Below are positions 3,241 to 49,424 of a stretch of DNA of 64,000 nt, piece after piece. The position numbers and the translations under genes were made by a program. The notes beneath the pieces are model-generated. The model worked only from the letters and a program-made list of their open reading frames with translations. It ran no database searches and was not told where the DNA came from. How positions within the stretch are numbered: position 1 is the stretch's first letter; the number at the start of each line of letters is the position of its first letter. Source of the stretch: Eledone cirrhosa (taxonomy: Eukaryota); assembly GCA_964016885.1 (NCBI GenBank), contig OZ024763.1:17236001-17300000 (forward strand), read 5' to 3'.

Positions 3241-3452
3241 GGTGTGTGAATTTTTTCTCACGAGTCAGTTCTTTCGTAGCTACGGACCCCGGCGGCCAAA
3301 TTTACCGGTCCCTGTCCTCATTTTGCAAAGCCCTTTAAACTGTATGTTATTACTCTGAGGTGCTATACCTTGTTGAGTGCTTGGCTGCACTGCTGAACGC
3401 ATTCGTTGGCTTGGCTGAGGCTCTGGCTTCGAATGTGCTCTACTTCCATTTG
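3241..3452 (+). mobile_element. Probable PLE 3' tail fragment
   Basis: Between (TA)n tracts; carries TGTTGAGTGCT at 3371-3381; similar to the reverse complement of 7821-7915. Confidence 0.4.
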
Positions 3453-3480
3453 TATATATATATATATATATATATATATA

Positions 3481-3729
3481 TTTTTATTTTATAGAAGGAG
3501 CTTCTACAGGACTAGTACTGTTTCATTCAGATGAAATCTTCAGGAAGCTCCTGAATCTTCAGGAAGCTCCTGAGCTTCAGGAAGCTCAGGAGCTTCCTGA
3601 AGATTTCATCTGAATGAAACAGTACTAGTCCTGTAGAAGCTCCTTCTATAAAATAAAAAAATTTTACTCTGCCATGTATTGAGTACCTTACTTACTGTGG
3701 TTATCCCTGACTCAACCCGGGACCTACGT
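3481..3729 (+). mobile_element. Penelope-like fold-back insertion, family C
   Basis: 3481-3553 mirrors 3587-3659 around a rearranged centre; tail 3660-3729 with TATTGAGTAC; (TA)n on both sides. Confidence 0.8.
3588..3644 (+). ncRNA. Type I hammerhead ribozyme, family C (mirror copy 3496-3552 on -)
   Basis: aggagcttc-CTGAAGA-tttcatctgaat-GAAA-cag[tactagtc]ctg-T-A-gaagctcct; 9-bp helix I, 4-bp helix III. Confidence 0.8.
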
Positions 3730-3750
3730 ATATATATATATATATATATA

Positions 3751-4038
3751 CACGATATTAAACAAATGGAAACTATATTTATAAAACCATATTTATTTCA
3801 TTATATATATTTCAGGGATACCATATTAAAAATATGGCATGCCTTCGTCAGATAAAATACAATATATAAACAGTTTTATAAATAATTTTGATGTACCATA
3901 ATATAAGCGACCATTAAATTAGGAGGCTGCCTTGGTAGTATATCTACTCCAAAAATTATAAAATTATAAAATATAAAATTATAAAATTATAAAATATTTA
4001 CTTGTTGTAACCCAACAATTTTAAATAGAACTTTTGCA
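3751..4038 (+). mobile_element. PLE insertion, D group: inverted pLTR plus tail
   Basis: Hammerhead on -, tail on +; homologous layout at 47643-47910; TA-flanked. Confidence 0.65.
3796..3857 (-). ncRNA. Minimal hammerhead, D group
   Basis: rc: ttttat-CTGACGA-aggcatgccatatttttaatatggtatccct-GAAA-tatata-T-A-atgaaa; palindrome ATATATAT. Confidence 0.8.
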
Positions 4039-4077
4039 TATATATATATATATATATATATATATATATATATATAT

Positions 4078-4276
4078 GTAGGAGGTGAGTTTTATTGTAG
4101 TACAATAAAGCAATGCAGATATCGGATAAGAAGCACTCTACAGTTTGTACGACTGGAGCATCATGTCCTCCTATTTTATCTGATGAAAACACAAATGTTA
4201 TTGCATGATGATATTTGTTTTTAAAATGTGCCTAATAAAATACATGGAACTCATTTAACCATCTTTTGATCTTATA
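4078..4276 (-). mobile_element. PLE family D2 copy (tail plus inverted pLTR, degenerate hammerhead 4174-4240)
   Basis: 4078-4158 is the reverse complement of tail 7681-7762; 4161-4276 matches 7555-7670; GAAA is mutated. Confidence 0.75.
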
Positions 4277-4359
4277 TATATATATATATATATATATATA
4301 TATATATATATATATATATATATATATATATATAGCAATATATATAGCATATATTGAAC

Positions 4360-4512
4360 GTAGAGTTCAAGCCGGCAGAGCTCAAGCCGTCGAAACGGCT
4401 TGAGCTCTGCGGTCGGGGTCATACTTTTTCCTATTTCCCACTCTACTACCCTAAGTATTGAGTACTCTGGTGCGTTATGGTCCATCTGGTTCCTTACCAC
4501 AATTCCTTTGTT
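4360..4512 (+). mobile_element. PLE family H copy (3' half of hammerhead plus tail)
   Basis: gccgtcGAAAcggcttgagctctgcggTCgggg...ctaagtattgagtactctggtgcgttatggtcc; 7 copies in the window. Confidence 0.7.
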
Positions 4513-45839: not shown

Positions 45840-46196
45840 GATTAATATAGTTCATTGATTACTCAATGAATATAGTTTTACAATAGATTAAAAGCACTCA
45901 ACATGAAAAGTTTTCTAGAGTTCACATAATCAAAATATATGTTTTATTATATATATTTCGAAGGTACTGTGCTGTTTTTTCCACTACGTCCTCGTCAGAT
46001 AAAATACATGAATTGATGTATGACATACCTCAACGGTGTTGATGGTTCAATTCCAGTATTGGCAGATTGAACCATCAGCACCGTTGAGGTATGTCATACA
46101 TCAATTCATATATTTTATCTGACGAGGACGTAGTGGAAAAAACACCACAGTACCTTCGAAATATATATAATAAAACATATATTTTGATTATGTGAA
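45840..46196 (-). mobile_element. Penelope-like fold-back insertion, D group (D4)
   Basis: 45921-46052 is the reverse complement of 46067-46196; tail at left with rc TGTTGAGTGCT (45893-45903). Confidence 0.8.
46113..46175 (+). ncRNA. Minimal hammerhead, D4 (mirror copy 45942-46004 on -)
   Basis: ttttat-CTGACGA-ggacgtagtgg..ccacagtaccttc-GAAA-tatata-T-A-ataaaa. Confidence 0.8.
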
Positions 46197-47357
46197 TGTC
46201 TTCATTTATTAATATTTTGAATAAAGTATATATATATACACAAACATCATTGTTTAATATCATTTTGTCCATGCTGACATGGGTATGTATATATATGAAT
46301 ATATATATGTATATGTGTATATATAGGTGTATATTTATATATATATATATATATATATATATATATGTATATGTGTATATATAGGTATATATATATATAT
46401 ATGTATATGTGTATATATAGGTGTATATATATATATATATATATATATGTATATGTGTATATATAGGTGTGTATATATATATATATATATATGTATATGT
46501 GTATATATAGGTGTATATATATATATATATATATATATATATGTATATGTGTATATATAGGTATATATATATATATATATATATATGTATATGTATATGT
46601 ATATACAGGTGTGTATGTATACATATATATGTGTGCATATATATATATATATGTACATGTATGCATATATTACATAAACAAAGATACATATATACACACA
46701 CACACACACGCACACACGCGTTACTCCTCTCCAGATAACAAAACAATACCCACCTATTATTTGTACATATTTCTATATTATTTATATCTATAATTTATGT
46801 TTTATTCTGTCTTTAAACCCCCCTCCCCCGAAAATTGATGTTTTTCAAAATGAATATCCTCTTGTTTCTGTTAAACGCCCCCCTTCACCCCCCTGTTCCG
46901 CCCCGCACCCCAGATTTTCGATCTTATGTAAACACCGCACCCCTCCTACTTAGATAATTATATTTCTTACTGTATATAGTATTTTACTTTACATGGGCAC
47001 CCATGTAAATAAGCAGTAGTGTGTGAGGTGTTGGGGCAACAACAAGAATTTACTGTACTTAGCTGTTGTTTGCTGCTTTGTTGGGGCTTTTTTTTTTTTC
47101 GTCTCATTTTGTTTTGTGGGTATTTTTCTGTGTTGCGTGTATTGTGTATGTCTGTGTTGTATGTTTGTTGTATGTGTATTGTGTGTATTGTGTGTGTGTT
47201 GTGTTGTGTATGTTTCTGTTTCTGTGTGTGTGTGTGTGTATGTATGTGTGTGTTTTGGGGGGTAGGGTAGTGGCAGGGGTGTTACGATGTTGGCAAAGAT
47301 TATTTGTGAAGAAAAGAAAATGCAGTGGAAAATGATCCTGTTGTACATAAATATAGT

Positions 47358-47642
47358 CTATCATCATTTCATCATCATCATCATTTCATTTTACGTCCGC
47401 TTTTCCCTGCTTGTAAGGGTGGGACGGGAACTGATTCTGGCTTGATTTCTACAGCTGGATGCCCTTCCTAACACCAACCTCATTTACAGTGAGTGCTGGG
47501 TGCTTTTTTTCCATGGCACCTCCACGACCACTTTGCAGTGGAATGATAGGGACTGGGGTCCCTATCATCTCATTTCTACAGCTGAGTAAACTGGAGCAAT
47601 GTGAAATAAAGTGTCTTGCTCAAGGAAACAACACATCACCCG
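47358..47642 (-). mobile_element. S1 SINE lacking its head
   Basis: Matches S1 body and tail. Confidence 0.85.
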
Positions 47643-47910
47643 TTAATATATACAAAATATTAACAAATGACAACCATATTTATTTCATTATACATATTTC
47701 AAGGGCCACCAGAGCAAACTATGGTGCGCTTTCATCAGATAAAATATAATATAGGTTAGTTTTATAAATAAATGTTGACATACCCTTAAAAAATGCAACC
47801 ATTCTGGTTGGAATCTCCTGGATATCAGATAATAATTTGTTGAGTGCTTTATATCAGTTATAAAGATATTTTGCTTGTTGTATCCCAACAAATTATATAT
47901 GACCTCTACA
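47643..47910 (+). mobile_element. PLE insertion, D group (D3); hammerhead 47683-47744 on -
   Basis: rc ttttat-CTGATGA-aagcgcacca..tggtggccctt-GAAA-tatgta-T-A-atgaaa; tail with TGTTGAGTGCT at 47838-47848. Confidence 0.75.
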
Positions 47911-47917
47911 TATATAT

Positions 47918-48229
47918 ATCATCATCATCATCATCATTTTACGTCCACTTTTCCCTGCTTGCAAGGGTGGGACGGTAACTGATTCTGGCTTGATTTCTAC
48001 AGCTGGGTGCCCTTCCTAACACCAACTTCATTTACAGTGAGTGCTGGGTACTTTTTTTCCGTGGCGCCTACACGTCCACTTTACAGTGAGTGCTGGGTGC
48101 TTTTTTTCCATGGCACCTCCACGACCACTTTACAGTGGAATGATATGGACCCCAGTCCCTATCATCTCATTTCTACAGCTGCGTAAACTGGAGCACTGTG
48201 AAATAAAGTGTCTTGCTCAAGGAAACAAC
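47918..48229 (-). mobile_element. S1 SINE lacking its head, with an internal 48-bp duplication
   Basis: tttacagtgagtgctggg occurs twice (48031, 48080). Confidence 0.85.
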
Positions 48230-48845
48230 CTAAATAGAATATTAGCCTATGACTTCATTTATACCATAAACATGGTTTTGTTTTTGCGTGTATTTGTTCT
48301 TATCGCTCCACATAACAACGTATTATCTTCGCTTTTTTTCCGTTCATTGCCAGGGAACATCTCCACGAACCAAAGTATCCTCTTTCTGTTTTCCTTTCGG
48401 TTCCAGCCTTTTTCACAATATTTACTTCTGCGTTCACAGATTGATTTCTTTCAGTTTCAGAAGATCCCATTAAGTGTGAAAGCAGCGATTTTTTGCTTAA
48501 ACTTTAATCTGTTATTCTAATAAATATATATAGATATATATATATATCATCATCATCATCATTTTACGTCCGCTTTTCCCTGCTTGCAAGGGTTGGACGG
48601 GTCCTATTCAGCACAGCATCTCTGCACTTGTCACGGTCCTTCGTCATCATCATCATTTAACGTCCATCTTCCATGCTAGCATGGGTAGGATGGGTTGCCC
48701 CTTTGTGAGGGATTAGTTTTGAGGTTCCGTGATTCACTCACTCAACTGATTTGGCTTTGTTTCTACAGCTGGATGCCCTTCCTTACACCAACCTCATTTG
48801 CAGTGTGTGCTGGGTGCTTTTCCTATTAACTATAGTATATAATAT

Positions 48846-49424
48846 GGCATACGTCAAGACGGGCGGTCTTAAAAGTGAAAGTAAATTTATTTTCATTTTC
48901 GAACGTCGTGTTTACATTTTGTGTGTGTGTTTAGATCTAAAATTAGTGTCGTTTTAACTGATTATATATATATGTATATGTGTGTGTGTGTGTGTAGTTG
49001 ACGGTTGAGAGAAGAGTACTCAATACCGAAGTAATCTTGTAATGAGGCTTGCAGAATGGTGAGTCCGCCATTCTGGACGCTGCTGCCTTGCAGAAGTCCC
49101 AAATCGAAGTTCTGACATTCTCGTCCCCATCATTCAGCAGGGATTTTGCCAGGCAGCCGCATCACCTCCGATGGTTGGGCTTCCTATTCGGAAATTGAAG
49201 GTGGGATTTACGTTCATGATGTTGTGGTGCACGAACGGACCTTTGTAGATCCTGCGGACCTTGGTGTGCACACACAGCTCATAAAGAACACATGGAGCCG
49301 TGCAAAGTAGAAGCTTCGTCGCCATCATGTTTCGTTTGAACACACACACAAAATGTAAACACAACGTTCGAAAATGAAAATAAATTTACTTTCACTTTTG
49401 AGACCGCCCATCTTGACGTATGCC
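48846..49424 (+). mobile_element. Internally deleted Merlin (IS1595/ISXO2-like) DNA transposon
   Basis: About 95-bp TIRs starting GGCATACGTCAAG; 8-bp TSD tataatat/tgtaatat; transposase relic VPNRSSDILVPII..ILPGSRITSDGWASY...VVHERTFVDP..GVHTQLIKNTWSRAK*. Confidence 0.85.

What the first reader, a model, noticed from the sequence alone, without database searches (positions are those of the whole stretch)
3371..49025. Shared 11-nt tail motif TRTTGAGTRCT across unrelated ribozyme-element families
Seen, always in the tail's sense orientation and about 20-75 nt from the 3' end: 3371(+), 3677(+, C), 4132(-) and 7698(+) (D2, TGTAGAGTGCT), 4456/8812/11084/28624/36370/42630(+, H), 7894(-), 35418(+), 45893(-, D4), 47838(+, D3) and 49015(-). 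Flanks are otherwise dissimilar between families. It is absent from the A, B and F tails. Inference: a conserved cis element for RT/endonuclease binding, 3'-end formation or an antisense promoter. I do not know of a description of it.
Basis: partly seen in the sequence, partly recalled or inferred. Interest (0 to 1): 0.75.

Follow-up and report, generated by a model that had tools for sequence, protein, structure and literature searches.

The report
Twin hairpins mark retrotransposon copy ends
The shared motif is one strand of a small predicted RNA hairpin that occurs twice in a known group of jumping genes (Hydra-type Penelope elements), and because inserted copies end about 6-9 bases before each hairpin it likely tells the copying enzyme where to start.

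Summary
The motif is real: 12 exact hits against 0.28 expected. It is not a free-standing 11-mer, and the families are not unrelated. It is the 3' strand of a bulged hairpin (CTC/GAG core, 2-nt bulge, covarying flanking pairs) in Hydra-clade Penelope-like elements that insert into (TA)n. Read-through copies show the order hammerhead - end A - hairpin 1 - end B - hairpin 2 - ATG. Copies end mostly 6-9 nt 5' of each hairpin, although the hairpins lie 78-167 nt apart. Of 26 distant relatives (31-45% protein identity), 16 carry two copies, 6 one and 4 none. Neptune- and Poseidon-type copies lack it (0 of 15). One non-coding ~610-nt tandem family keeps both hairpins. Most likely it is the RNA signal that positions the reverse transcriptase at its two internal start sites; this is inferred, not tested. 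No description was found in eight literature searches. This scan reported the same hairpin earlier on other DNA of this genome, and those notes gave the lead.

The parts
3352..3381 (+). Hairpin 1, family of 3371 (no canonical hammerhead seen; DNA-related to the 7894 family)
   Evidence: 35 read-through copies show a second arm starting 8 nt past the tail end
3666..3687 (+). Hairpin 1, family C; hammerhead core patterns at 3597-3619(+) and 3521-3543(-) in the fold-back arm
   Evidence: hairpin 2 not found
3752..4043 (.). D3 Hydra copy: inverted arm with hammerhead core (3810-3851, -) and a tail piece whose hairpin 1 is lost
   Evidence: 93-95% identity to the full-length D3 element
4132..4159 (-). 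Hairpin 1, family D2 (outer 5' base replaced at the fold-back junction)
4440..4466 (+). Hairpin 1, family H
6787..6823 (+).
   Evidence: 82% over 475 nt to L265
7681..7708 (+). Hairpin 1, family D2, in a two-armed insert (hammerhead cores 7395-7441(-) and 7574-7620(+))
   Evidence: coding read-through copy L277 with hairpin 2
7894..7923 (-). Hairpin 1 with a mutated 5' arm, non-coding tandem family
   Evidence: intact arm in 15 of 17 copies shown, this copy included in the 17; monomers 602-624 nt with hairpin 2
8794..8822 (+). Hairpin 1, family H
11068..11094 (+). Hairpin 1, family H
   Evidence: read-through copy L267 with hairpin 2 and ORF
28608..28634 (+). Hairpin 1, family H (diverged)
35366..35428 (+). 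Hairpin 1 with a 46-nt loop, family of 35418
   Evidence: 83 read-through matches with hairpin 2 starting 8 nt past the tail end
35957..35983 (-).
36354..36380 (+). Hairpin 1, family H
42614..42640 (+). Hairpin 1, family H
45893..45921 (-). Hairpin 1, family D4, in a two-armed insert (hammerhead cores from 45998(-) and 46119(+))
   Evidence: 9 read-through matches with hairpin 2, 7 of them with a Hydra ORF
47838..47848 (+). 3' strand of hairpin 1 only, in a D3-like relative; the 5' arm is lost at the fold-back junction; hammerhead core 47697-47738(-)
   Evidence: 82.5% over 80 nt to the D3 tail; not hit by the model
48963..49033 (-). 5'-cut tail fragment of family J (outer arm missing), a passenger inside an element bounded by ~110-bp inverted repeats (about 48830-48940 and 49330-49440)
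   Evidence: 558 pattern matches in the genome; 12 of 20 loci have the full arm, 5 of 20 share this window's context
570..1107 (.). Control: Neptune-type PLE end with hammerhead and no hairpin (second copy 25595-25880)
   Evidence: 89-98% to L116; no hairpin
2703..3091 (.). Control: Poseidon-type PLE end, no hairpin
   Evidence: 85-87% to L123; no hairpin

Best explanation
The motif is the 3' strand of a predicted bulged hairpin that lies twice in the 5' untranslated region of Hydra-clade Penelope-like elements, and it likely acts in the RNA as the binding site that sets the element's reverse transcriptase to start 6-9 nt upstream of it. Shown from sequence: the order hammerhead - end A - hairpin 1 - end B - hairpin 2 - ATG; the pairing changes; the fixed spacing; the clade restriction. 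Inferred: a tandem (or circular) transcript is bound by the RT/endonuclease protein at a hairpin; the endonuclease cuts a (TA)n run; the cut end primes synthesis just 5' of the hairpin and runs away from it. A start before hairpin 1 gives the tail-less, usually inverted arm. Tail length equals the hairpin spacing. Non-coding tandem families that keep the hairpins would be moved in trans.
For: Partner arm at 15 of 20 motifs against 6.1% by chance; 137 of 159 in search-selected loci. In 26 non-redundant relatives the motif occurs 38 times in 6.2 kb of 5' UTR against 46 in 42 kb of coding DNA. With arms picked without any pairing rule, the four variable pairs are kept in 29, 30, 24 and 22 of 32 (shuffled means 21.8, 22.9, 13.1, 13.9). 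The outer pair is seen as G-C, A-U and U-A. Ends before hairpin 1 / hairpin 2: D3 16 of 19 at 7 nt / 9 of 14 at 8; H 33 of 38 at 8 / 51 of 60 at 6; 915-aa family 3 of 5 at 7 / 3 of 3 at 7; 832b 5 of 5 at 7 / 2 of 2 at 8; 894-aa family 5 of 5 at 6 / 5 of 6 at 6-8; spacings 78-167 nt. The peaks hold in copies found incidentally, and 41 other TA dinucleotides in the D3 reference are not end peaks. The predicted second hairpin was then found 7-8 nt past the tail end in D2 (1 of 3 matches), D4 (9 matches), the 35418 family (83 matches) and the 7894 family. D4 read-through copies have C at -8 where ended copies have T, so the end does not need a perfect TA match. Published Hydra-1_Ajap holds both hairpins before its ATG. 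In vitro, the Poseidon RT starts at two internal sites that bracket the tail and needs RNA 3' of the first (PMC11167929).
Against: No binding or priming test. The full bulged hairpin is the minimum-energy fold in only 2 of 8 segments, with z-scores from -2.2 to 0.0. The CTC/GAG core and the 3' flank never vary, so they carry no covariation, and related sequences inflate the shuffle test; the U-A pair in L214/L216 is one event. Most ends coincide with a T or TA in the template, so microhomology fine-tunes them: D2 end A splits between 7, 9 and 12 nt, family J ends scatter over 2-14 nt (6 copies), and the two end-A copies of the 35418 family lie at 3 and 10 nt. No hairpin 2 was found for family C. 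Four of 26 relatives have no motif and six have one. Hairpin 2 of the 35418 family has a mismatch at the second inner pair. H and D2 are tied to an ORF by one locus each. Several control segments were short (143-221 nt) and may not reach the true tail.
Confidence: 0.6

Rival explanations
1. The hairpin directs cutting of the RNA 6-9 nt upstream (by the element's protein or a host nuclease), and ordinary priming from the new RNA 3' end gives ends A and B.
For: It predicts the same spacing and the same covariation.
Against: For the Poseidon element, synthesis starts internally on uncut RNA and product size does not follow the RNA 3' end (PMC11167929); that is another clade.
Confidence: 0.15
2. 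The hairpins serve translation or RNA stability in the 5' UTR and are shared by descent; copy ends are set by TA microhomology that happens to lie nearby.
For: Both hairpins lie 40-140 nt before the ORF start in relatives, and ends usually fall on a T or TA.
Against: Many TA and TATA sites in the same tails are not used. The spacing holds at both ends across tail lengths of 78-167 nt. A non-coding family keeps both hairpins and ends 8 nt before hairpin 2. D4 ends at a mismatched base.
Confidence: 0.12
3. The signal is read in DNA by the GIY-YIG endonuclease (cruciform or single strand) when it resolves or targets tandem copies.
For: PMC11167929 reports that the D. virilis Penelope tail was needed for endonuclease recognition of plasmid DNA; the original paper was not read.
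Against: A loop of 3-46 nt and G-U type pairs fit a folded RNA better than a double-stranded site. The hairpin is always on the strand of the hammerhead and the ORF.
Confidence: 0.1
4. A linear promoter or transcription-factor site, as in the first reader's antisense-promoter idea.
For: Part of the 11-mer resembles NK-type homeodomain sites (recalled, not tested).
Against: The variable bases of the 11-mer change with their partners, and most relatives replace the octopod-type outer base with a compensating change on the other arm.
Confidence: 0.03

Closest known systems
Hydra clade of C-terminal EN+ Penelope-like elements (Craig et al. 2021, PMC8557442)
   Same: Single ORF with RT and C-terminal GIY-YIG, RWK/RWR, DKT, CxCX5C linker, hammerhead, (TA)n targets; supplement consensus Hydra-1_Ajap carries both hairpins and Hydra-2_Ajap one.
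   Different: The passages and the Hydra section read describe no tail hairpin. Units here are 3.7-4.8 kb rather than under 3 kb, and tails about 70-167 nt rather than 30-40 bp.
Internal two-site initiation and 'tail' of the Poseidon element PAc (Frangieh et al. 2024, PMC11167929)
   Same: Two internal start points bracket the tail; RNA downstream of the first start is required.
   Different: There the starts lie in an AC-rich stem loop inside the ORF and the binding motif was not defined. Here a conserved duplicated hairpin lies in the 5' UTR, 3' of each end. The Poseidon-type copies of this genome lack it.
Metazoan non-LTR retrozymes (PMC7229834; bioRxiv 10.64898/2026.07.22.740005)
   Same: The 7894 family is a short head-to-tail non-coding repeat with PLE-type ends, matching the proposed PLE-parasite relation.
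   Different: No canonical type I hammerhead was seen in it. The passages read name no shared RT-recognition signal; here the link is the hairpin pair.
3' stem-loops shared by LINEs and SINEs, the R2 3' UTR, hepadnavirus epsilon (recalled; not tested here)
   Same: A small structured RNA tag that recruits the reverse transcriptase and can be borrowed by non-coding parasites.
   Different: LINE and R2 tags lie 5' of the start and are copied, and epsilon templates its primer from the bulge. This hairpin lies 3' of its own start point, would not be copied from it, and is duplicated.

Membership tests
Hydra-clade PLE | Single ORF, RT followed by C-terminal GIY-YIG endonuclease | tested here: met
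   D3 ORF with YRDD and a C-terminal IIYNC...YVG stretch; many open frames of about 745 aa. The Pfam copy gave no hit above cut-off, so the domain call rests on motifs.
Hydra-clade PLE | RWK motif; DKG changed to DKT | tested here: met
   RWR/RWK/RWV in 7 of 9 own families (the 861-aa copy and the frameshifted H copy missed the pattern); DKT in 9 of 9.
Hydra-clade PLE | CxCX5C linker in place of CX2-5CxxC | tested here: met
   6 of 6 own ORFs long enough to hold it; CX2-5CxxC only in the 4 Neptune-type rows.
Hydra-clade PLE | CCHH motif absent from the endonuclease | not tested
   No alignment to canonical ENs was made; CxxC and CxH are visible at the D3 C-terminus.
Hydra-clade PLE | Canonical hammerhead in the pseudo-LTR | tested here: inconclusive
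   Core pattern upstream of hairpin 1 in C, D2, D3, D4, the 35418, 894-aa and 915-aa families and in 13 of 26 relatives. Not seen in H, the 832-aa, 861-aa, 3371 and 7894 families. Rfam gave no match at gathering score in 7 loci.
Hydra-clade PLE | Insertion into (TA)n | tested here: met
Hydra-clade PLE | Placement with the published Hydra proteins in an RT tree | not tested
   Published sequences were read by eye in the supplement and show the same motifs. The tree (quick search) joins the 22 Hydra-type rows at SH-aLRT 100 apart from Neptune- and Poseidon-type rows but holds no published reference.
Hydra-clade PLE | Generally short, under 3 kb (descriptive, not strict) | tested here: not met
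   Unit lengths about 3.7 kb (D3), 4.1 kb and 4.8 kb.
PLE tail / two internal RT starts (PAc type) | Two alternative copy ends with an optional tail between them | tested here: met
   ends A and B in 7 families with both hairpins known
PLE tail / two internal RT starts (PAc type) | Starts shown by in vitro reverse transcription | not testable with these tools
   needs purified protein
Non-LTR retrozyme (7894 family) | Short non-coding head-to-tail monomers | tested here: met
   602 and 624 nt between successive motifs, no Hydra protein match inside the monomer
Non-LTR retrozyme (7894 family) | Type I hammerhead in each monomer | tested here: inconclusive
   none seen by eye; no Rfam match in L372, but Rfam also missed the minimal hammerheads of the coding families
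Non-LTR retrozyme (7894 family) | Circular RNA in tissue | not testable with these tools
   no suitable RNA data in reach
LINE/SINE-type 3' recognition stem-loop (recalled) | Lies 5' of the RT start and is copied into every insertion | tested here: not met
   each hairpin lies 3' of the nearest end; hairpin 2 is absent from ended copies

The most novel reading that the evidence does not exclude
Hydra-type reverse transcriptases use a portable hairpin of about 20-30 nt as a downstream ruler. Any RNA carrying it is copied into a cut (TA)n run from a point about 8 nt upstream, without needing an RNA end or good primer pairing. Two hairpins on one RNA load two enzymes that write both arms of the two-armed insertion, and ribozyme-type non-coding repeats parasitise the system by keeping the pair. 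This would be the first defined RT-recognition signal for Penelope-like elements, the sister group of telomerase.
Probability: 0.35. Interest if true: 0.85.

Novelty: new variant of a known kind. Interest (0 to 1): 0.62.

Why it matters
How Penelope-like elements choose their internal start sites, and why copies carry an optional tail, is an open question: the one in vitro study read here mapped the starts but did not define the RNA motif. A conserved, covarying, duplicated hairpin at a fixed distance from both ends gives a precise mutation plan. It explains tail length and offers a molecular link between coding elements and their non-coding parasites. If it is portable, it is a very small tag for RNA-templated insertion into TA repeats.

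Tried and rejected
Coding constraint (the motif can read I/V-E-Y/C): rejected, since it lies in the 5' UTR before the ATG. SECIS, K-turn and known RNA families: no Rfam match (at gathering score; the 150 rows shown were nearly all microRNA models on simple repeats, all below gathering score, and 83 lower rows were not shown). GIY-YIG Pfam search of the genome gave Neptune- and Poseidon-type elements only, used afterwards as controls. A DNA search with the 5' end of D2 returned nothing. An exact 28-mer of the 3371 tail matched only itself. Patterns for a second hairpin after the C tail gave 1, 0 and 3 matches, none a clean read-through (L281 viewed, the others judged from the matched strings). 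A D4 pattern that required TA at the junction gave 2 chance matches. Sequencing runs: no RNA holder listed, so no reads were laid. Look-up of earlier notes by sequence: nothing. The careful tree did not finish; the quick tree is reported. Alignment A2 was chosen with a pairing rule for three of its four variable pairs, so one search is the fairer test. Rows dropped: 36 of 77 loci lacked the ORF start; of 41, 13 were dropped (8 with no N-terminal signature, 5 with under 150 nt upstream) and 2 as redundant.
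Full report
Observation. The 11-mer occurs 12 times exactly in the window, against 0.28 expected, and 20 times with one mismatch, against 7.8. All 15 listed sites are present, and 35957(-) was missed. Seven exact hits are copies of one family, so the sites stand for about nine families. Each lies 41-74 nt before a (TA)n run; 49015 meets a (CA)n run first. The window lies in a 3.0-Gb animal genome. The nearest named proteins come from Argonauta hians, so an octopod is likely (inference). 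In 400 kb taken at round coordinates (8 of 40 stretches lie near the window) there were 20 strict motifs against 0-4 in shuffles, and 17 of 20 had a TA run 30-100 nt downstream, against 9.4% by chance.

The motif is half of a hairpin. Earlier notes of this scan suggested a hairpin in Hydra-clade elements, and I tested that lead. Upstream of the motif lies a complementary arm. A four-pair stem with an invariant CTC/GAG core is followed by a 2-nt bulge on the 3' strand, then two or more further pairs and a loop of 3-46 nt; an unpaired three-base flank follows. The arm was present at 15 of 20 strict motifs, against 6.1% for planted motifs. Of the five without it, three were damaged H or D4 copies, one belonged to family J and one was unrelated. 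In the window a pattern search found 14 such hairpins, and a covariance model found the same 14 at E up to 2 (six of them were in its training set). These are 12 of the 15 listed sites, plus 35957 and 6787. The three misses have lost or mutated the 5' arm. The 7894 family has the arm intact in 15 of 17 copies shown. 47838 is cut at a fold-back junction. 49015 is a 5'-cut tail of family J: 558 pattern matches in the genome, 12 of 20 loci with the full arm, and 5 of 20 in the same inverted-repeat-bounded context as the window.

The families are related. A copy that read through the D3 tail led to full-length 3.7-kb elements. [quoted passage not shown] In 5 of the 8 loci the downstream repeat stops in (TA)n 8 nt before hairpin 2; one continues as a tandem and two lack that end. 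Read-through copies with hairpin 2 and an ORF were found for H (one locus), D2 (one of 3 matches) and D4 (9 matches, 7 with ORF). Five more coding families of this genome have the same layout. The nine own proteins share 34-81% identity. With 13 metagenomic relatives they form one clade apart from four Neptune-type and two Poseidon-type rows (quick tree, SH-aLRT 100). They carry the RWK/RWR, DKT and CxCX5C marks that Craig et al. give for Hydra (PMC8557442, section 11). The Neptune and Poseidon labels are mine, from the linker motifs. None of 15 such control copies had the hairpin in its 3' segment, though only three segments surely reach hammerhead and tail. The copy at about 6069-6986 is a Hydra family whose hairpin has a G-C outer pair and so escapes the 11-mer.

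Conservation. A scan of metagenome contigs returned 77 loci at 31-45% identity. Of 26 non-redundant ones with the ORF start and 150 nt upstream, 16 had two motif copies, 6 one and 4 none. The density was 38 in 6.2 kb of UTR against 46 in 42 kb of coding DNA. With arms chosen without a pairing rule (32 of 38 had one in range), the outer and three inner positions paired in 29, 30, 24 and 22 of 32. At most 13 of 5000 shuffles reached these values, but relatedness is not controlled. In a 51-row alignment chosen partly by pairing, the outer pair was G-C 41, A-U 6 and U-A 4; the unselected third inner pair held in 44 of 51; slid controls paired 22-56%. In the supplement of PMC8557442 (word searches; part 53 of 59), Hydra-1_Ajap has both hairpins before its ATG, and Hydra-2_Ajap and the record before Hydra-1_Obim have one after the hammerhead. 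Hydra-1_Crog has an atypical version, and none was seen in the ends of Hydra-1_Obim shown. The other hits, in records outside the Hydra set, showed no such arrangement. Line breaks in the file can hide hits. Against: the full hairpin is the minimum-energy fold in only 2 of 8 segments, so it would need protein to hold it. Rfam has no match.

Spacing. Over 1.5 Mb of own-genome DNA, ends that abut (TA)n were mapped on family references. Before hairpin 1 and before hairpin 2: D3 7 nt (16 of 19) and 8 (9 of 14); H 8 (33 of 38) and 6 (51 of 60); 915-aa family 7 (3 of 5) and 7 (3 of 3); 832b 7 (5 of 5) and 8 (2 of 2); 832a 9 or 3 (2 copies) and 8 (3 of 4); 894-aa family 6 (5 of 5) and 6-10 (6 copies); 861-aa family 8 and 0 (one each). 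Hairpin spacings were 78-167 nt. End A was also at 6-8 nt in C (8 of 8), at 8 in D4 (13 of 17) and at 7, 9 or 12 in D2 (33 of 35). J (6 copies, 2-14 nt) and the 35418 family (3 and 10 nt) did not give a sharp peak. Because many loci were fetched with tail queries, the count was repeated on incidental copies only: the same peaks appeared, and most TA and TATA sites in the references were unused. The prediction of a second hairpin about 8 nt past the tail end held for D2, D4, the 35418 family (83 matches, none for the reversed pattern; copies of one family, not independent events) and the 7894 family. It held for the 5' arm in the 3371 family (35 matches) and failed for C. D4 read-through copies have C at the position where ended copies have the first T of the repeat.

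A non-coding carrier. The 7894 family forms head-to-tail monomers of 602-624 nt with no Hydra protein match inside. It keeps hairpin 1 and a long-looped hairpin 2 with a U-A outer pair, 8 nt past its end (read by eye). This fits mobilisation in trans. Whether the 3371 and 35418 families are coding was not examined.

Mechanism. Frangieh et al. (PMC11167929; abstract, main text and start of methods read) showed that a Poseidon protein starts reverse transcription at two internal RNA sites that bracket the tail. It needs RNA out to +172, past the start at +111-118, and the binding motif was left undefined. The Hydra hairpins sit where such a motif should be: one just 3' of each end. I therefore hold it most likely (0.6) that each hairpin binds the protein and sets the start 6-9 nt upstream, with local T or TA pairing fine-tuning it. 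Rivals are hairpin-directed RNA cutting (0.15), a UTR function with ends set by microhomology (0.12), DNA-level recognition by the endonuclease (0.10) and a promoter (0.03). Anatomy, pairing and spacing are shown; binding, priming and trans-mobilisation are inferred.

Novelty. The elements are known in kind. Eight full-text searches found no description of the hairpin. It is not in the passages read of PMC8557442, PMC7229834 (passages), PMC13282606 (passages) or bioRxiv 10.64898/2026.07.22.740005 (parts 1-3 of 5). Subscription journals, Repbase and Dfam notes and the supplementary figures of PMC11167929 were not seen. The scan had already noted the hairpin on other DNA of this genome; those notes are leads, not support. 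Verdict: a real, apparently undescribed cis element in a known clade; new variant of a known kind; interest 0.62.

Noticed in passing
window 48830-49440; L326, L328, L333, L334: A repeated element bounded by ~110-bp inverted repeats carries a captured Hydra tail fragment and about 300 nt of other sequence; probably a MITE-like DNA element.
   Followed up: partly
window 4370-4430, 11000-11060, 36250-36350, 42540-42610: Family H folds back inside a GC-rich palindromic stretch that has the second half of a hammerhead core and a stem III-like hairpin, but no first half was seen; its ribozyme, if any, is unresolved.
   Followed up: partly
L359, L367, L372 (family of window 7894): Abundant ~610-nt non-coding tandem repeat with PLE-type ends and no canonical hammerhead seen; may hold a rearranged or unknown ribozyme.
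   Followed up: partly
L257, L266 (861-aa family), L265, L270 (832-aa families): Coding Hydra families whose pseudo-LTR shows no canonical hammerhead core by pattern, although hammerheads are reported as universal in Hydra.
   Followed up: no
window 45850-45875 (-): The D4 tail holds a further perfect 8-bp hairpin with a GNRA-type tetraloop between hairpin 1 and the tail end.
   Followed up: no
G000: Several Hydra families have dozens of long open frames (about 745, 832, 894 and 915 aa), which suggests recent activity; units are longer than the published ones.
   Followed up: partly
window 17176-22406: A 36-nt minisatellite of about 140 copies, open in three frames; probably a satellite, not a gene.
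   Followed up: no
window 24539-24970 (+): A 143-aa frame that looks like the C-terminal restriction-like endonuclease of an R2/R4-type LINE (by recalled motifs).
   Followed up: no
window 8947-9350: Short mariner-like fragment with terminal inverted repeats between TA runs (by eye).
   Followed up: no
L021 5990-8900: Family H tails amplified in tandem inside very long, degenerate (TA)n arrays.
   Followed up: no
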